From Escherichia phage 21: a stretch of DNA of 42,931 nt. Where the stretch lies: sequence record OL657228.1. One strand, given 5' to 3'. The notes beneath the pieces are model-generated. The model did not search any database and had not been told where the DNA came from. It saw only the letters and a program-made list of their open reading frames with translations. Shown piece after piece: positions 10,738 through 42,783 of the stretch; the stretch's first letter is position 1, and every line of letters begins with the position of its first letter. The position numbers were made by a program, and so were the translations under genes.

Positions 10738-13291
10738 ACCGGTAGGCGATCTGGTCGTTGATTTAAGTCTGGATGCGGCCAGATTTGACGAGCAGATGGC
10801 CAGAGTCAGGCGTCATTTTTCCGGTACGGAAAGTGATGCGAAAAAAACAGCGGCAGTCGTTGAACAGTCGCTGAGCCGACAGGCGCTGGCTGCACAGAAA
10901 GCGGGGATTTCCGTCGGGCAGTATAAAGCCGCCATGCGTATGCTGCCTGCACAGTTCACCGACGTGGCCACGCAGCTTGCAGGCGGGCAAAGCCCGTGGC
11001 TGATCCTGCTGCAACAGGGTGGTCAGGTTAAGGACTCCTTCGGCGGGATGATCCCCATGTTCCGGGGGCTTGCCGGTGCGATCACCCTGCCGATGGTCGG
11101 GGCCACCTCGCTGGCGGTGGCGACCGGTGCGCTGGCGTATGCCTGGTATCAGGGTAACTCAACCCTGTCCGATTTCAACAAAACGCTGGTCCTTTCCGGC
11201 AATCAGTCGGGTCTGACGGCAGATCGTATGCTGGTCCTGTCCAGAGCCGGGCAGGCGGCAGGGCTGACGTTTAACCAGACCAGCGAGTCACTCAGCGCAC
11301 TGGTTAAGGCGGGAGTAAGCGGTGAGGCTCAGATTGCATCCATCAGCCAGAGTGTGGCGCGTTTCTCCTCTGCATCCGGCGTGGAGGTGGACAAGGTCGC
11401 TGAAGCCTTCGGGAAGCTGACCACTGACCCGACGTCGGGGCTGACGGCGATGGCGCGCCAGTTCCATAACGTAACGGCGGAGCAGATTGCGTATGTTGCT
11501 CAGTTGCAGCGTTCCGGCGATGAATCCGGGGCATTGCAGGCGGCGAACGAGGCCGCAACGAAAGGGTTTGATGACCAGACCCGACGCCTGAAAGAGAACA
11601 TGGGCACGCTGGAAACCTGGGCAGACAGGACAGCACGGGCATTCAAATCCATGTGGGATGCGGTGCTGGATATTGGTCGTCCTGATACCGCTCAGGAGAT
11701 GCTGATTAAGGCAGAGGCTGCGTTTAAGAAAGCGGACGACATCTGGAATCTGCGCAAGGATGATTATTTTGTTAACGATGAAGCGCGGGCGCGTTACTGG
11801 GATGATCGTGAAAAGGCCCGTCTTGCGCTTGAAGCCGCCCGAAAGAAGGCTGAACAGCAGAGTCAACAGGACAAAAATGCGCAGCAGCAGAGCGATACCG
11901 AAGCATCACGGCTGAAATATACCGAAGAGGCGCAGAAGGCTTACGAACGGCTGCAGACACCGCTGGAGAAATATACCGCCCGTCAGGAAGAACTGAACAA
12001 GGCACTGAAAGACGGGAAAATCCTGCAGGCAGATTACAACACGCTGATGGCGGCGGCGAAAAAGGATTATGAAGCGACGCTGAAAAAGCCGAAACAGTCC
12101 GGCGTGAAGGTGTCTGCGGGCGATCGTCAGGAAGACAGTGCTCATGCTGCCCTGCTGACGCTTCAGGCTGAACTCCGGACGCTGGAGAAGCATGCCGGAG
12201 CAAATGAGAAAATCAGCCAGCAGCGCCGGGATTTGTGGAAGGCGGAGAGTCAGTTCGCGGTACTGGAGGAGGCGGCGCAACGTCGCCAGCTGTCCGCACA
12301 GGAGAAATCCCTGCTGGCGCATAAAGATGAGACGCTGGAGTACAAACGCCAGCTGGCTGCACTTGGCGACAAGGTTACGTATCAGGAGCGCCTGAACGCG
12401 CTGGCGCAGCAGGCGGATAAATTCGCACAGCAGCAACGGGCAAAACGGGCCGCCATTGATGCGAAAAGCCGGGGGCTGACTGACCGGCAGGCAGAACGGG
12501 AAGCCACGGAACAGCGCCTGAAGGAACAGTATGGCGATAATCCGCTGGCGCTGAATAACGTCATGTCAGAGCAGAAAAAGACCTGGGCGGCTGAAGACCA
12601 GCTTCGCGGGAACTGGATGGCAGGCCTGAAGTCCGGCTGGAGTGAGTGGGAAGAGAGCGCCACGGACAGTATGTCGCAGGTAAAAAGTGCAGCCACGCAG
12701 ACCTTTGATGGTATTGCACAGAATATGGCGGCGATGCTGACCGGCAGTGAGCAGAACTGGCGCAGCTTCACCCGTTCCGTGCTGTCCATGATGACAGAAA
12801 TTCTGCTTAAGCAGGCAATGGTGGGGATTGTCGGGAGTATCGGCAGCGCCATTGGCGGGGCTGTTGGTGGCGGCGCATCCGCGTCAGGCGGTACAGCCAT
12901 TCAGGCCGCTGCGGCGAAATTCCATTTTGCAACCGGAGGATTTACGGGAACCGGCGGCAAATATGAGCCAGCGGGGATTGTTCACCGTGGTGAATTTGTC
13001 TTCACGAAGGAGGCAACCAGCCGGATTGGCGTGGGAAATCTCTACCGGCTGATGCGCGGCTATGCCACCGGCGGTTATGTCGGTGGCACCGGAAGTCCGG
13101 CGCAAATGCGGCGTTCAGAGGGTATCAGGTTTGAGCAGAACAACAACGTGGTGATTCAGAACGACGGTACGAATGGTCTGCCAGGTCCACAGATGATGAA
13201 GGCGGTGTATGACATGGCCCGCAAGGGTGCCCGTGATGAAATCCAGGCACAGATGCGCGATGGTGGTCTGTTCTCCGGAGGTGGACGATGA
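10730..13291 (+). CDS. H: tail tape measure protein H
   Basis: 853 aa (same length as lambda gpH); coiled-coil-rich centre and glycine-rich C-terminus; position after G-T. Confidence 0.93.
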   Translation: MAEPVGDLVVDLSLDAARFDEQMARVRRHFSGTESDAKKTAAVVEQSLSRQALAAQKAGISVGQYKAAMRMLPAQFTDVATQLAGGQSPWLILLQQGGQVKDSFGGMIPMFRGLAGAITLPMVGATSLAVATGALAYAWYQGNSTLSDFNKTLVLSGNQSGLTADRMLVLSRAGQAAGLTFNQTSESLSALVKAGVSGEAQIASISQSVARFSSASGVEVDKVAEAFGKLTTDPTSGLTAMARQFHNVTAEQIAYVAQLQRSGDESGALQAANEAATKGFDDQTRRLKENMGTLETWADRTARAFKSMWDAVLDIGRPDTAQEMLIKAEAAFKKADDIWNLRKDDYFVNDEARARYWDDREKARLALEAARKKAEQQSQQDKNAQQQSDTEASRLKYTEEAQKAYERLQTPLEKYTARQEELNKALKDGKILQADYNTLMAAAKKDYEATLKKPKQSGVKVSAGDRQEDSAHAALLTLQAELRTLEKHAGANEKISQQRRDLWKAESQFAVLEEAAQRRQLSAQEKSLLAHKDETLEYKRQLAALGDKVTYQERLNALAQQADKFAQQQRAKRAAIDAKSRGLTDRQAEREATEQRLKEQYGDNPLALNNVMSEQKKTWAAEDQLRGNWMAGLKSGWSEWEESATDSMSQVKSAATQTFDGIAQNMAAMLTGSEQNWRSFTRSVLSMMTEILLKQAMVGIVGSIGSAIGGAVGGGASASGGTAIQAAAAKFHFATGGFTGTGGKYEPAGIVHRGEFVFTKEATSRIGVGNLYRLMRGYATGGYVGGTGSPAQMRRSEGIRFEQNNNVVIQNDGTNGLPGPQMMKAVYDMARKGARDEIQAQMRDGGLFSGGGR

Positions 13292-40081: not shown

Positions 40082-40578
40082 TGCCTCCATCATTACGAAA
40101 AGCCGTTGCTGCTGCTATTGGTGGCGGGGCTATTGCCATAGCATCTGTGTTAATCACTGGCCCAAGTGGTAACGATGGTCTGGAAGGTGTCAGCTACATA
40201 CCATACAAAGATATTGTTGGTGTATGGACTGTATGTCACGGGCATACAGGAAAAGACATCATGCTCGGTAAAACGTATACCAAAGCAGAATGCAAAGCCC
40301 TCCTGAATAAAGACCTTGCCACGGTCGCCAGACAAATTAACCCGTACATCAAAGTCGATATACCGGAAACAATGCGCGGCGCTCTTTACTCATTCGTTTA
40401 CAACGTGGGTGCTGGCAATTTCAGAACATCGACGCTTCTTCGCAAAATAAACCAGGGCGATATCAAAGGCGCATGTGATCAGCTACGTCGCTGGACATAT
40501 GCTGGCGGTAAGCAATGGAAAGGTCTCATGACTCGTCGTGAGATTGAGCGTGAAATCTGTTTGTGGGGTCAGCAATGA
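40081..40578 (+). CDS. R: SAR endolysin (R21-like lysozyme)
   Basis: 165 aa; N-terminal signal-anchor-release segment ([20 protein letters not shown]) followed by a lysozyme-like domain; pairs with the pinholin. Confidence 0.88.
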
Positions 40579-41036
40579 ACAGAGTAACCGCGATTATCTC
40601 CGCTCTGGTTATCTGCATCATCGTCTGCCTGTCATGGGCTGTTAATCATTACCGTGATAACGCCATTACCTACAAAGCCCAGCGCGACAAAAATGCCAGA
40701 GAACTGACGCTGGCGAACGCGGTAATTACTGACATACAGATGCGTCAGCGTGATGTTGCTGCGCTCGATGCAAAATACACGAAGGAGTTAGCTGATGCGA
40801 AAGCTGAAAATGATGCTCTGCGTGATGATGTTGCCGCTGGTCGTCGTCGGTTGCACATCAAAGCAGTCTGTCAGTCAGTGCGTGAAGCCACCACCGCCTC
40901 CGGCGTGGATAATGCAGCCTCCCCCCGACTGGCAGACACCGCTGAACGGGATTATTTCACCCTCAGAGAGAGGCTGATCACTATGCAAAAACAACTGGAA
41001 GGAACCCAGAAGTATATTAATGAGCAGTGCAGATAG
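40575..41036 (+). CDS. Rz: spanin inner-membrane subunit Rz
   Basis: Start [21 protein letters not shown]; near-identical to lambda Rz. Confidence 0.9.
40795..40977 (+). CDS. Rz1: spanin outer-membrane lipoprotein Rz1 (embedded in Rz, +1 frame)
   Basis: 60 aa with lipobox (LVVVGC) and proline-rich tract, fully nested within Rz in another frame. Confidence 0.88.
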
Positions 41037-41067: not shown

Positions 41068-41361
41068 TTATTGTGAGCAATACACACGCGCTTCCAGCGG
41101 AGTATAAATGCCTAAAGTAATAAAACCGAGCAATCCATTTACGAATGTTTGCTGGGTTTCTGTTTTAACAACATTTTCTGCACCACCACAAATTTTTGCT
41201 GCATCGACAGTTTTCTTCTGCCCAATTCCCGAAACGAAGAAATGATGGGTGATGGTTTCCTTTGGTGTTACTGCTGTAGGTTTGTTTCCAACAGTAAACG
41301 TCTGTTGAGCACATCCTGTAATAAGCATTGCCAGAGCGGCAGAAAACAACATTTTTTTCAT
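41068..41361 (-). CDS. bor: Bor serum-resistance lipoprotein
   Basis: 97-aa frame MKKMLFSAALAMLITGCAQQTFTV...EARVYCSQ, near-identical to lambda Bor. Confidence 0.92.
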   Translation of the reverse strand: MKKMLFSAALAMLITGCAQQTFTVGNKPTAVTPKETITHHFFVSGIGQKKTVDAAKICGGAENVVKTETQQTFVNGLLGFITLGIYTPLEARVYCSQ

Positions 41362-41841
41362 CTTATTATCCTGCATTGTTAAAAACGGCAGAATCCTATG
41401 TGACAACAATTAAACGATAGTTAAATGGATTGATGAAAATTAAAACTACACAGGTGGGCTCAGACTATTGGAGGAAGTTGGGGACACTCAGAATCCTGTG
41501 GAATGAAATAAACCGGTCTATCCGTCCATTACCCTTTTAGCTGCGCTGTATCGTCGCCGTATTCCCGCATTAACCATGACCGTAGCCCGACGGGGAATTC
41601 CTTCTGCGTGAGTGTGCGGGAATAATTAAAAACGATGCACACCGGGTTTTTACCGCGTTAATGATTCGCGGGTTTATCCCGGTGCGATGGTGGAAGAAAC
41701 AGGAAGCTGTATTACAGAAAGTGCTACTACTGTATCCCGATGCGATGTATGTAATGTGAGTCAGATAATGGCACAGGATGTGGTGATGTGGCAGTCTGGA
41801 ACACAGGATATATTGTCAGAATAAGACCCGTAGGAATAAAA

Positions 41842-42168
41842 ATGAAAAGACGCCTTTTACTACTTTTTCTGTTATCTGTCCTGGCAGTGGGATGCTCGCA
41901 GCAAAAAGCTGATGAGCCCCGGCAATTAGTGACGGTGTATCCACGATATCCGGAATATGCTGCAGCAAATTATATCAAGGGGCTGGTTGAGGTTAAGTTC
42001 GATATTGGTGCTGATGGGACTGTGACACGGATCGTTTTTCTCCGCTCAGAGCCTCATAATTTGTTTCGTGATGAAGTGGTGAAGGCCATGGCGAAATGGC
42101 GATTTGAAAAGAATCGCCCCTGTCAGGGAGTGAAGAGACAATTTATCTTTACGCCGTCACGTCCTTGA
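41842..42168 (+). CDS. putative envelope lipoprotein (TonB C-terminal-like)
   Basis: Start MKRRLLLLFLLSVLAVGCSQQ (lipobox LAVGC) with SD AGGA upstream; C-terminal part (YPRYPEYAAANYIKGLVEVKFDIGADGTV...AMAKWRF) resembles a TonB C-terminal domain. Confidence 0.6.
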   Translation: MKRRLLLLFLLSVLAVGCSQQKADEPRQLVTVYPRYPEYAAANYIKGLVEVKFDIGADGTVTRIVFLRSEPHNLFRDEVVKAMAKWRFEKNRPCQGVKRQFIFTPSRP

Positions 42169-42290: not shown

Positions 42291-42470
42291 TCATTTCTTC
42301 TTTTTCTCTGGTGGAACCCGATGAATAAGAGTTGCACTGGTTTCCGATGAGATGGCGATATACTCGGGCAAAGTATGCTGGCAGTTTTCCAACTGGTCAA
42401 AAATACCTGCTCTCGTCTGTTGCAATGCCTGCAGCATGCGGCGGCAATGCGCCTTGCTTTTACTAACCAT
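42291..42470 (-). CDS. hypothetical small protein (59 aa)
   Basis: ATG preceded by SD GGAAGGAAAG; MVSKSKAHCRRMLQALQQTRAGIFDQLENCQHTLPEYIAISSETSATLIHRVPPEKKKK; no family recognised. Confidence 0.45.
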   Translation of the reverse strand: MVSKSKAHCRRMLQALQQTRAGIFDQLENCQHTLPEYIAISSETSATLIHRVPPEKKKK

Positions 42471-42531
42471 CTTTCCTTCCTCTATCAGTCGCTGCGTGAA
42501 CTCATCATGGAATACCAGGTAAATGCGGATG

Positions 42532-42783
42532 TTATCGGTTTTGGCTACGCAGCATAGTACAAAACGGACAGGTGCATCCCGGGACGGGGGAGGCGTCACA
42601 TGTCCCTGTGATGGTTGTTCCGGGTAATGTACTGTGTGGGGCATAAAAATGTCCGATAATTTTACTTTCTACCGCAGTTAGTTGATTCGTTGGTCCTGGT
42701 AGCACATTGGGCGAGGATTTAAATGCCAGGCAACTGAAGGATGATGTCGCAAGGGAGATAGCGAGAATATTTCTGATTTTCAT
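42532..42783 (-). CDS. hypothetical small secreted cysteine-containing protein (83 aa)
   Basis: ATG preceded by SD-like GAGG; N-terminal signal-peptide-like segment MKIRNILAISLATSSFSCLA; C-terminal Cys cluster GTCDASPVPGCTCPFC; immediately upstream of the 59-aa ORF on the same strand. Confidence 0.45.
   Translation of the reverse strand: MKIRNILAISLATSSFSCLAFKSSPNVLPGPTNQLTAVESKIIGHFYAPHSTLPGTTITGTCDASPVPGCTCPFCTMLRSQNR

What the first reader, a model, noticed from the sequence alone, without database searches (positions are those of the whole stretch)
41410..41841. About 430 bp structured non-coding region between bor and the lipoprotein gene, with direct and inverted repeats
The interval has no convincing ORF but contains two direct copies of TATCCCGRTGCGATG (about 41675 and 41733), an inverted pair ATTCCCGCA / TGCGGGAAT (about 41561 and 41616), and further CCCG-containing half-sites. 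This could be a regulator-binding array or a structured 5' leader for the downstream lipoprotein moron.
Basis: seen in the sequence. Interest (0 to 1): 0.4.

Follow-up and report, generated by a model that had tools for sequence, protein, structure and literature searches.

The report
Conserved structured RNA in lambdoid phages

Summary
The bor / TonB_C-lipoprotein gap (41362-41841) has no credible ORF and contains the reported direct and inverted repeats. It is three things, not one array.

1. 41362-41430 is the bor promoter region, with a PhoP-box-like direct repeat and a -10 on the minus strand.
2. 41542-41705 (+) is one copy of a sharply bounded, widespread conserved module.
3. 41706-41841 is the leader of the TonB_C lipoprotein gene and holds the second copy of the 15-nt repeat, which remains unexplained.

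The module occurs in lambda (about 46,868-47,033), 434, 933W-type Stx phages, ES18 and K-12 DLP12. It matches 431 phage records and 4,635 of 5,426 complete E. coli genomes. It always lies downstream of Rz and upstream of the small terminase gene, on their strand, whatever the flanking genes are.

In 31 de-replicated copies, 37 proposed base pairs are 96% paired, against 57% or less in slid controls. Fourteen pairs carry compensatory double changes. G.U outnumbers A.C 85 to 14, which favours the + (late-transcript) strand. Coding, an Rfam family, a terminator and a consensus promoter were all tested and not supported.

My best reading is a cis-acting structured RNA module of the late pR' transcript, probably an intercistronic processing or stability element. 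The structure is shown; the function is inferred. The element is also a recombination joint: one crossover lies inside the window's copy.

The parts
41068..41361 (-). bor lipoprotein gene, the left neighbour (context only)
   Evidence: Pfam PF06291 Lambda_Bor, E=1e-30. Annotated as Bor in identical phages.
41393..41426 (-). Probable bor promoter. It has a PhoP-box-like direct repeat ATTTAACTATCGTTTA (41411-41426), a 12-nt spacer, and a -10-like TAGGAT (41393-41398).
   Evidence: This is the only match to RTTTA-N6-RTTTA in the window. Lambda has a perfect TGTTTAGGGTTTGTTTA at the homologous place. The consensus is taken from PMC5775216. The -10 was read from the sequence. PhoP control of borD is from memory and was not tested.
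41542..41705 (+). The conserved structured module (the window's only copy). It is a deletion variant lacking the 16-17 nt CC(C)TCATGCTCGCCAGT found in most copies.
   Evidence: Covariance model R1 scores it at 185.5 bits, E=1.5e-51, with no other hit in the window. Conservation ends sharply on both sides. The deletion is visible.
41548..41554 (+). P0 5' arm GTATCGT, pairing with ACGATGC at 41632-41638
   Evidence: Predicted by RNAalifold. Pair 41549/41637 is seen as U.G, U-A and C-G.
41560..41569 (+). P1 5' arm TATTCCCGCA, pairing with TGCGGGAATA at 41615-41624.
   Evidence: Five of 10 pairs show compensatory double changes, for example TATCTCCACA/TGTGGAGATA in Salmonella-type copies.
41581..41608 (+). 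P2 (CGTAG 41581-85 / CTGCG 41604-08) enclosing P3 (CCC 41586-88 / GGG 41593-95)
   Evidence: P2 becomes CGCT/AGCG and P3 becomes GGC/GCC in L165-type copies. P3 is deleted cleanly (10 nt) in L072/L080/L135.
41609..41638 (+). P1 and P0 3' arms, with the conserved single-stranded linker AATAATTAAAAAC between them
   Evidence: Near-invariant in the alignments. Part of this invariance was imposed by my search patterns.
41653..41671 (+). P5 variable hairpin, CCGCG / CGCGG with a 9-nt loop
   Evidence: The sequence is replaced by CTGTG/CGCAG, CAGC/GCTG, CGGCGA/TCGCTG or TCTC/GAGA in other types, with pairing kept.
41640..41684 (+). Window-type long hairpin CACCGGG (41640-46) / CCCGGTG (41678-84), made by the 16-nt deletion. 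It competes with P6.
   Evidence: Reported by the repeat finder as I1 and present in the MFE fold. This register has no covariation and is broken in 30 of 69 copies.
41678..41704 (+). P6 hairpin with the conserved loop GCGATGGTGGAAGAA. It is weakened in the window by a G.A mismatch at 41681/41701 and loss of the outer pairs. The first direct-repeat copy (41675-41689) is its 5' arm.
   Evidence: P6 has 5 covarying pairs (CCGG/CCGG, CCTG/CAGG, CTCGA/TCGAG) across relatives. Window pairs are listed.
41733..41747 (+). Second copy of the 15-nt direct repeat, outside the conserved module. Its role is unexplained.
   Evidence: The similarity does not extend beyond 15 nt. One relative (L129) carries TATCCTGATGCGATG.
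41842..42168 (+). TonB_C-domain lipoprotein moron, the right neighbour (context only)
   Evidence: Pfam PF03544 TonB_C, E=7e-13. Annotated 'TonB fragment / TonB family protein' in relatives.

Best explanation
Positions 41542-41705 (+) are one copy of a widespread, unannotated structured RNA module of about 165-185 nt that belongs to the late operon of lambdoid phages. It would be transcribed as part of the Q-antiterminated pR' late transcript, between the lysis cassette (S-R-Rz) and the packaging genes.

The fold has two domains. The 5' domain is a long irregular hairpin, P0-P1-P2-P3, of about 25 bp, with conserved unpaired AUUAAC, GAGUGU and AAUAAUCAAAAAC. The 3' domain has a variable hairpin (P5) and a hairpin (P6) that presents a conserved purine-rich loop, GGUGGAAGAA.

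I think it most likely acts in cis on that polycistronic RNA as an intercistronic processing or stability signal. Endonucleolytic cleavage in or beside the irregular helix would leave structured ends, and so uncouple the decay and expression of the lysis mRNA from the morphogenesis mRNA and from inserted morons.

Because it is conserved DNA shared by otherwise unrelated modules, it also serves as a homologous-recombination joint. The window's own copy is a hybrid, with a crossover near 41650.

Shown here: the conservation, boundaries, helices, strand, genomic position and recombination joints. Inferred: transcription from pR', and any cleavage or stabilising activity.

For: - **Conservation and boundaries.** The block is conserved with sharp edges, while both flanks differ among lambda, 434, ES18, Stx2 phage I, O157 prophages and KKo003.
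- **Prevalence.** It matches 431 phage records and 4,635 of 5,426 complete E. coli genomes at 12,212 places. PGAP annotates nothing under most listed hits (rows shown).
- **Structure.** RNAalifold finds P0, P1 and P6. On 69 copies, 35 pairs are 95.1% paired against 32-56% when slid. On 31 copies less than 96.5% identical, 37 pairs are 96.0% paired. Fourteen pairs carry double changes, against 3-6 when slid, and all five measures give 0/500 shuffles.
- **Hairpin swaps and deletions.** P5 is swapped for other sequences and P3 is cleanly deleted, with pairing kept.
- **Strand.** There are 85 G.U cells in 19 pairs against 14 A.C cells in 6 pairs. Pairing is 96.0% on the + strand and 89.6% on the - strand.
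- **Position.** In about 165 loci, wherever my query proteins detected them in the fetched stretch, Rz lies upstream and the small terminase gene downstream on the element's strand. Three terminase types are represented.
- **Not coding.** The ATG is ATA in a large class. ORF lengths run from 8 to 82 aa and GGAAGAAAC is read in all three frames. Synonymous/non-synonymous counts are 10/20, 12/18 and 4/26. Indels of 1, 10 and 16 nt occur.
- **Not in Rfam 15**.
- **Recombination joints.** Break points fall at window positions 41542, about 41648 and about 41675. Duplicated copies flank morons in L048, L176 and L059, and truncated 5' halves occur.
Against: - No expression, end-mapping or cleavage data were available, so the processing/stability role rests only on anatomy and position.
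- Diversity is narrow (E. coli, Shigella, Salmonella; 75% identity or more). Many covarying cells come from a few lineages, chiefly the Salmonella type. Recombination also blurs independence.
- My search patterns forced invariance at their anchor positions.
- Single-sequence folding is not decisive: z = -2.8 for the window copy but -0.5 for the commonest type.
- The module tolerates a 16-nt deletion that disrupts P6 in viable phages such as ev017 and Perceval. At least the 3' domain is therefore dispensable for plaque formation.
- Q-modified polymerase and the lambda late mRNA are not known to need such an element.
Confidence: 0.4

Rival explanations
1. The same structured RNA, but acting in trans. 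It would be made in large amounts late in infection, possibly excised from the late transcript. It would bind or sequester a host factor such as Hfq, CsrA, ProQ or an RNase, or a defence sensor, through its conserved single-stranded purine-rich loop and A-rich linker.
For: The element is independent of both neighbours and is kept across three terminase types and several lysis-cassette variants, which suits a self-contained function. The most conserved unpaired segments are GGUGGAAGAA, an ARN/GGA-type motif displayed in the 15-nt P6 loop, and AAUAAUCAAAAAC. Tree et al. report A-R-N repeats as Hfq-binding motifs (PMC4104026 abstract).
Against: There is no conserved promoter or terminator of its own. 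Only one GGA motif sits in a loop. The EcOnc Hfq-bound sRNA that I mapped (EcOnc08/21) lies beside tRNA genes downstream of pR', not at this kind of site; I did not locate the element's copies in the Sakai genome. The window-type deletion weakens the very hairpin that displays the loop.
Confidence: 0.2
2. A DNA-level module junction ('linker'). The block would be conserved mainly because it is repeatedly copied between phages by homologous recombination at module boundaries, and the apparent RNA fold would be incidental.
For: Break points of mosaic homology coincide with its edges and interior. Duplicated copies flank inserted morons, and half-copies occur next to cos, on ColV iss plasmids and beside IS elements. 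Sequence identity is high across otherwise unrelated flanks.
Against: Recombination alone does not explain 14 base pairs with compensatory double changes, or replacement of whole hairpins by different sequences that still pair. It also does not explain the clean loss of a terminal hairpin or the 85:14 excess of G.U over A.C. Nor does it explain the fixed orientation relative to late transcription.
Confidence: 0.12
3. One reading: a DNA array of regulator-binding sites controlling bor and/or the lipoprotein gene. The sites would be the 15-nt direct repeats and the CCCG half-sites.
For: The 15-nt repeat is non-random. Its second copy lies just upstream of a weak GATAAT -10-like hexamer before the lipoprotein gene, as read from the sequence. 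A genuine regulator-type site, the PhoP-box-like repeat, exists for bor at 41411-41426.
Against: The first copy and the inverted pair lie inside a module that also occurs without bor and without the lipoprotein gene. Their variation follows RNA pairing rules. The second copy is not part of the conserved module, and its match to the first does not extend beyond 15 nt. The bor promoter motifs lie outside the module, within about 65 nt of the bor start. No consensus sigma-70 promoter was found in 41362-41841 on either strand.
Confidence: 0.07
4. One reading: a structured 5' leader (riboregulator) dedicated to the downstream TonB_C lipoprotein moron.
For: The element is on the same strand as the lipoprotein gene and 137 nt upstream of it. 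The element plus TonB_C unit travels together in several phages and prophages.
Against: In most loci the element is followed by other things: lambdap78 on the opposite strand, cos and Nu1 about 250 nt away, DUF1441 or 933W-type terminase genes, or other morons. No expression platform (terminator or SD-sequestering helix) links it to the lipoprotein start.
Confidence: 0.05
5. Small protein-coding gene(s). Candidates are the MHTG... ORF that starts at the conserved ATG (41635), or the minus-strand ORF annotated 'hypothetical protein' in some records.
For: The ATG lies in a conserved context. In the commonest type the ORF runs 82 aa with a hydrophobic N-terminus. PGAP and several phage records annotate short hypothetical proteins over the block.
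Against: The start codon is ATA in a large class. The ORF is 8 aa in the window and 8-82 aa elsewhere, with frame changes, and conserved GGAAGAAAC is read in three frames. There is no excess of synonymous change. The minus-strand ORF is frame-shifted by 1- and 10-nt indels in the lambda, L048 and L072 types.
Confidence: 0.03

Closest known systems
Intercistronic RNase III processing hairpins of phage polycistronic mRNAs (T7 R1.1-type sites; lambda sib and N-leader sites). Recalled from memory, not tested.
   Same: An irregular helix of about 20-25 bp, interrupted by asymmetric internal loops, placed between cistron blocks of a long phage transcript. It is independent of the identity of the neighbouring genes.
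   Different: No cleavage data exist. The element is larger, with an extra 3' domain (P5, P6), and has long conserved single-stranded segments. No sequence similarity was examined or found.
HK022 put RNAs, cis-acting antitermination RNAs of a lambdoid phage (from memory)
   Same: A structured RNA encoded within a lambdoid operon that acts without a dedicated protein-coding partner. The 3' domain here, like put, is made of two adjacent stem-loops.
   Different: put sites lie just downstream of the early promoters pL and pR. This element lies about 2-4 kb into the late operon, where polymerase is already Q-modified. No similarity was tested, and no Rfam model matched.
REP/BIME-type intergenic stabiliser hairpins and ERIC repeats of enterobacteria (from memory)
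   Same: Multi-copy, unannotated, structured intergenic sequence (up to 11 places per E. coli genome) that could protect upstream mRNA from 3' exonucleases.
   Different: It is confined to one syntenic position in lambdoid prophages with a fixed orientation. It is not dispersed, and it has a complex multi-helix fold rather than a simple palindrome.
Large orphan structured RNAs associated with prophages (ROOL, GOLLD; Rfam families)
   Same: A covariation-supported, function-unknown RNA carried by phages and prophages.
   Different: It is much smaller (about 180 nt), occurs in Enterobacteriaceae lambdoids, and gives no hit to any Rfam 15 model.
Conserved 'boundary/linker' sequences of the modular theory of lambdoid phage evolution (Susskind-Botstein; from memory)
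   Same: A short conserved block at a module boundary where mosaic joints fall.
   Different: Here the block additionally shows RNA-type compensatory evolution and strand asymmetry.

Membership tests
Any curated Rfam family (release 15) | A match to a covariance model at or near its gathering score | tested here: not met
   There is no hit inside the element at E<=1 for the window copy. At E<=10, the L006 copy gives only a chance-level snoRNA hit at 9.7 bits against a cutoff of 45, and the L165 copy gives none.
Stand-alone sRNA gene | Its own conserved promoter upstream and an intrinsic terminator at the 3' end | tested here: not met
   Conservation starts abruptly at TGCGCTGTATCG and the upstream flanks are unrelated. 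No terminator-like or promoter-like site lies in 41362-41841. No U-tract follows P6.
Riboswitch or dedicated 5' leader | Constant association with one class of downstream gene, plus an expression platform | tested here: not met
   The downstream neighbours vary: TonB_C, lambdap78 (-), cos/Nu1, DUF1441 TerS, 933W-type TerS and other morons.
Protein-coding small ORF | A conserved start codon, a conserved reading frame and an excess of synonymous change | tested here: not met
   ATG becomes ATA in a large class. ORF lengths are 8-82 aa with frame switches. Synonymous/non-synonymous counts are 10/20, 12/18 and 4/26 in the three frames.
Structured RNA (generic) | Helices maintained by compensatory and wobble substitutions beyond controls | tested here: met
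   96.0% of cells are paired, 14 of 37 pairs carry double changes and 0/500 shuffles reach the observed values. Slid controls give 57% or less paired and 6 or fewer pairs.
Structured RNA (generic) | Strand asymmetry, with G.U tolerated and A.C avoided | tested here: met
   There are 85 G.U cells (19 pairs) against 14 A.C cells (6 pairs). Pairing is 96.0% on the + strand and 89.6% on the - strand.
RNase III-type intercistronic processing signal | An irregular helix of about two turns between cistrons of a polycistronic transcript | tested here: met
   P0 (7 bp), an internal loop, P1 (10 bp), an internal loop, then P2-P3 (8 bp), lying between Rz and the terminase genes on the late strand.
RNase III-type intercistronic processing signal | Site-specific cleavage by RNase III, or other endonuclease-dependent ends | not testable with these tools
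   This needs end-mapping of late RNA in wild type versus rnc or rne hosts.
PhoP-activated promoter (for bor, the left part of the interval) | A (T/G)GTTTA-N5-(T/G)GTTTA box about 12 nt upstream of a -10 hexamer | tested here: inconclusive
   The window has cATTTA-ACTAT-cGTTTA, then 12 nt, then TAGGAT, which is 3 departures from the consensus. Lambda has a perfect TGTTTA-GGGTT-TGTTTA. The consensus comes from PMC5775216. Binding was not tested.
Dispersed repeat or MITE (REP, ERIC) | Terminal inverted repeats or target duplications, and scattered genomic positions | tested here: not met
   The ends are not inverted repeats (read from the sequence). In every locus where neighbours could be identified it lies in the Rz-to-terminase interval with one orientation.

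The most novel reading that the evidence does not exclude
Phage lambda itself (about 46,868-47,033, between bor and lambdap78), most lambdoid and Stx phages, and about 85% of complete E. coli genomes carry a previously unrecognised structured RNA family in the late operon. It would have a dedicated RNA-level function, for example programmed processing of the 25-kb late transcript or capture of a host factor late in infection.
Probability: 0.45. Interest if true: 0.75.

Novelty: new member of a known kind. Interest (0 to 1): 0.6.

Why it matters
Lambda is the reference temperate phage, and its late operon is thought of as an uninterrupted Q-antiterminated message with no internal RNA signals.

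A conserved, covariation-supported RNA fold at the lysis/packaging boundary would be new in three ways:
- It would be a new regulatory layer, directly testable in lambda genetics.
- It would be a new RNA family for Rfam and for prophage annotation. It is present in lambda, 434, Stx phages, ES18 and K-12 DLP12, and PGAP annotates nothing under most of the E. coli hits I inspected.
- It would give a concrete sequence explanation for a recurrent mosaic joint and moron-insertion site. That site includes the bor/iss region that was transferred to ColV virulence plasmids.

If it turns out to be only a recombination linker, it is still a useful marker for prophage late regions.

Tried and rejected
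- **Rfam.** Scans of three divergent copies found nothing.
- **uORF MHTG...** Rejected. ATG is ATA in a large class, and lengths and frames vary.
- **Minus-strand ORF.** This is 37 aa in the window and is annotated 'hypothetical protein' elsewhere. It is broken by 1- and 10-nt indels.
- **HK629's annotated minus-strand promoter inside the block.** Its -10 TACAAT exists only in lambda-type copies; the window has TACGGC. The bor promoter motifs lie closer to bor.
- **Helix register CACCGG/CCGGTG.** This is the window's I1 repeat considered as the ancestral pairing. It shows no covariation and is broken in 30 of 69 copies. The 4-bp GCAC/GTGC alternative has a single covarying event, so a pseudoknot or switch with P6 stays open.
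- **Other pairings tried by eye.** A GCA/UGC plus GGG/CCC nesting seen in some MFE folds, a kissing interaction AUUAAC/GUUAAU, a k-turn-like internal loop, and GCUCGC/GCGAGU long-range pairing. None is conserved across types.
- **Second 15-nt repeat as a vestigial second copy of the element.** The similarity does not extend beyond 15 nt, and the CM finds only one copy.
- **Known EHEC prophage sRNAs (EcOnc, AgvB/AsxR).** Those described, and the EcOnc08/21 locus I mapped, lie just downstream of pR' beside tRNA genes. I did not map the element's own copies in Sakai.
- **Literature.** Searches by topic and by sequence string found no description. Barondess and Beckwith 1995 is not held.
- **Genome-contig scan.** It mostly returned lambda DNA contamination, judging from contig sizes.

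Full report
**Setting**

The window is a complete cos-ended lambdoid phage genome.
- Its right end matches the phage 21 cos/terminase record. Its last 1.3 kb is identical to phages ev017, PhiR47_2, PhiR57_1 and PhiR63_2, and 99.9% identical to Perceval.
- Around the finding lie Rz (40563-41036, +), bor (41068-41361, -; Pfam Lambda_Bor) and a TonB_C-domain lipoprotein gene (41842-42168, +; Pfam TonB_C).
- The non-coding gap is therefore 41362-41841, which is 480 nt.

**Check of the observation**

- The repeat finder returns the 15-nt direct pair (41675 and 41733, 14/15 identical) and the perfect 10-nt inverted pair (41560-69 / 41615-24). It also returns a second imperfect inverted pair, 41640-57 / 41667-84.
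- The 15-mer is expected 0.17 times in the whole window at up to 2 mismatches. Only 5 of 1000 shuffles of the downstream segment reach the same local score.
- Only ORFs of 25-45 aa occur in the gap.

**The gap is mosaic, and its centre is an autonomous conserved block**

- Megablast against phages shows that 41360-41650 is 95-96% identical to 434-like and other lambda-like phages. The rest is found only in the six relatives listed under Setting.
- Against 5,426 complete E. coli genomes, homology breaks recur at window positions 41542, about 41648 and about 41675.
- I aligned lambda, 434, ES18, Stx2 phage I, two O157-type prophages and strain KKo003. This reveals a block from TGCGCTGTATCGTCGC to GGTGGAAGAAAC(A/C)GGA that is conserved while both flanks are unrelated.
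- Pattern scans of IMG/VR gave more than 200 loci, and the conservation profile drops sharply at both edges.
- The block matches 431 phage records and 4,635 of 5,426 E. coli genomes, at 12,212 places with a median of 2 and a maximum of 11 per genome. PGAP annotates nothing under most of the listed hits.
- It is in lambda at about 46,868-47,033, between bor and lambdap78. It is in K-12 DLP12 at 579,009-579,175, between borD and ybcV. Neither the lambda record nor the MG1655 RefSeq record annotates any feature there.

**Position and orientation**

I used tblastn with Rz, R, bor and several terminase proteins over about 165 oriented loci.
- Wherever these proteins were detected in the fetched stretch, the block lies downstream of Rz (78-1,800 nt) and upstream of the small terminase gene. 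Both are on the block's strand.
- The terminase is Nu1-type, DUF1441-type or 933W-type. In ES18, the block lies within about 100 nt of the record's right end.
- Genes are inserted on either side of it. These include bor, Rha, a DUF4406-like gene, TonB_C, lambdap78 and others.
- In one lambda-like contig (L048) a copy ends about 45 nt before cosN.
- Three contigs carry two copies flanking an inserted gene (L048, L176, L059), and several carry only the 5' half.

**It is a fold, not a gene**

Compensatory changes are visible by eye, and RNAalifold recovers P0, P1 and P6. My model has these helices:

| Helix | Sequence in the window | Window coordinates |
|---|---|---|
| P0 | GTATCGT / ACGATGC | 41548-54 / 41632-38 |
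| P1 | TATTCCCGCA / TGCGGGAATA | 41560-69 / 41615-24 |
| P2 | CGTAG / CTGCG | 41581-85 / 41604-08 |
| P3 | CCC / GGG | 41586-88 / 41593-95 |
| P5 | variable hairpin | 41653-71 |
| P6 | 7 bp closing a 15-nt loop GCGnnGGUGGAAGAA | 41678-41704 |

The pairing statistics are as follows.

| Set | Pairs tested | Cells paired | Slid controls | Pairs with double changes | Shuffles |
|---|---|---|---|---|---|
| 69 distinct copies | 35 | 95.1% | 32-56% | 14 (slid: 4-8) | 0/500 for 3 of 5 measures |
| 31 copies <96.5% identical | 37 | 96.0% | 57% or less | 14 (slid: 3-6) | 0/500 on all five measures |

Salmonella-type copies are especially informative:
- P1 becomes TATCTCCACA / TGTGGAGATA.
- P2 becomes CGCT / AGCG.
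- P3 becomes GGC / GCC.
- P5 becomes CGGCGA / TCGCTG.
- P6 becomes CTCGA / TCGAG.

Another class deletes P3 cleanly, losing 10 nt. G.U cells outnumber A.C cells 85 to 14, and pairing is 96.0% on the + strand against 89.6% on the - strand. The folded strand is therefore the late-transcript strand.

**Coding is excluded**

- The conserved ATG is ATA in a large class, and this change turns a U.G in P0 into U-A.
- The ORF from the ATG ranges from 8 aa (the window) to 82 aa, with frame switches. GGAAGAAAC is read in all three frames.
- There is no synonymous excess.
- The minus-strand ORF is broken by 1- and 10-nt indels.
- No Rfam 15 model matches three divergent copies.
- No consensus sigma-70 promoter or intrinsic terminator lies in the gap.

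**The window's own copy**

- Covariance model R1 finds exactly one copy, at 41542-41705, scoring 185.5 bits.
- It is a hybrid. Its 5' domain is 434-like and its 3' part is KKo003-like, with the joint near 41650.
- It lacks 16-17 nt (CC(C)TCATGCTCGCCAGT) that most copies have.
- The deletion fuses neighbouring segments into a 7-bp helix, CACCGGG / CCCGGTG. This is the second inverted repeat and is present in the MFE fold.
- That helix uses the same nucleotides as the P6 5' arm. P6 also carries a G.A mismatch here.
The inverted pair is P1. The 'CCCG half-sites' are arms of P1, P3 and this helix.

**The flanks**

Left flank:
- The only RTTTA-N6-RTTTA match in the window lies 50-65 nt upstream of the bor start on the bor strand (ATTTAACTATCGTTTA, 41411-41426). 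It is followed after 12 nt by TAGGAT.
- Lambda has a perfect PhoP box, TGTTTAGGGTTTGTTTA, at the same place. The consensus is from PMC5775216.
- That borD is PhoP-activated is my recollection and was not checked.

Right flank:
- The segment 41706-41841 travels with the TonB_C gene.
- It holds an AGGA ribosome-binding site and the second 15-mer copy.
- That copy lies outside the conserved module, and its similarity to the first does not extend beyond 15 nt. It remains unexplained.

**What it does**

Nothing here measures function. The facts to be explained are:
- a fixed orientation in the late operon;
- a boundary position between the lysis and packaging genes;
- independence from both neighbours;
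- a 25-bp irregular helix with conserved internal loops;
- a displayed purine-rich loop;
- tolerance of loss of part of the 3' domain;
- frequent use as a recombination joint.

I rank the explanations as follows.
1. A cis-acting processing or stability signal in the polycistronic late RNA, by analogy with intercistronic RNase III hairpins of phage mRNAs. The analogy is from memory.
2. A trans-acting or decoy RNA that binds a host factor.
3. A pure recombination linker. This is hard to reconcile with the compensatory changes and the G.U asymmetry.

**Caveats**

- All copies come from E. coli, Shigella or Salmonella phages and are at least 75% identical.
- Covarying cells cluster in a few lineages.
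- My search patterns fixed their anchor bases.
- Literature coverage is limited to the held library, so prior description elsewhere cannot be excluded.

Noticed in passing
window 41393-41426 (-); L007 1806-1821 (lambda about 46,805-46,820): A PhoP-box-like direct repeat plus a -10 lies upstream of bor. It is imperfect in the window (cATTTA-N5-cGTTTA) and perfect in lambda (TGTTTA-GGGTT-TGTTTA). This suggests Mg2+/PhoPQ control of the serum-resistance moron.
   Followed up: partly
L048 5057-5235 and 6007-6185; L176 1782-1960 and 3566-3744; L059 12461-12639 and 10747-10854: Some lambda-like contigs carry two copies of the element flanking an inserted gene of about 200-370 aa. In L048 the distal copy ends about 45 nt before cosN. 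L059 and L218 have a 5'-half copy fused to cos-proximal sequence.
   Followed up: partly
L202, L214, L209, L219, L197 (about 10-30 nt after the element's 3' end): A strongly Fur-box-like palindrome (AAATGATAACAATTATCAT / AATGATAACCATTATCATT) directly follows the element in one class. This implies an iron-regulated moron at this insertion site.
   Followed up: no
L227 (plasmid pB1S11, NZ_CP117718.1 108,295-109,211): The iss (bor homologue) locus on this plasmid keeps Rz/Rz1 pseudogene fragments and a degraded copy of the element (83.9 bits; BLAST matches only its 5' half), cut off by an IS3-family element. It is a fossil of the phage late region; 696 plasmid places in total match the element.
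   Followed up: partly
L004 (NZ_CP042878.1), element split at GGGTTTTTAC: An IS66-family element (ISCro1) is inserted inside the element. GTTTTTAC is present on both sides, which looks like an 8-bp target duplication.
   Followed up: partly
L011-L044 (genome-contig hits): Most hits in unrelated taxa (Pseudomonas, Cohnella, Kitasatospora, Flavobacterium and others) are lambda-identical. They lie on contigs of about 48.4 kb or about 3.5 kb. I take these to be lambda control-DNA contamination of assemblies, an inference from contig sizes.
   Followed up: no
window 41389-41400 and 41489-41500; 41401-41414 and 41431-41444: Two further short direct repeats lie in the bor-proximal part of the gap: CAGAATCCTATG / CAGAATCCTGTG, and TGACAACAATTAAA / TGATGAAAATTAAA. 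The first copy of the former overlaps the putative bor -10. Their significance was not assessed.
   Followed up: no
window 42291-42644 (-) and 42532-42783 (-): Two overlapping minus-strand ORFs lie between the TonB_C gene and cos. One has a signal-peptide-like N-terminus. Neither has a Pfam match.
   Followed up: partly
L194 3010-3176 (E. coli K-12 MG1655 579,009-579,175): K-12's cryptic prophage DLP12 carries a lambda-type copy of the element in the borD-ybcV gap (140 bits), with nothing annotated there in RefSeq.
   Followed up: yes
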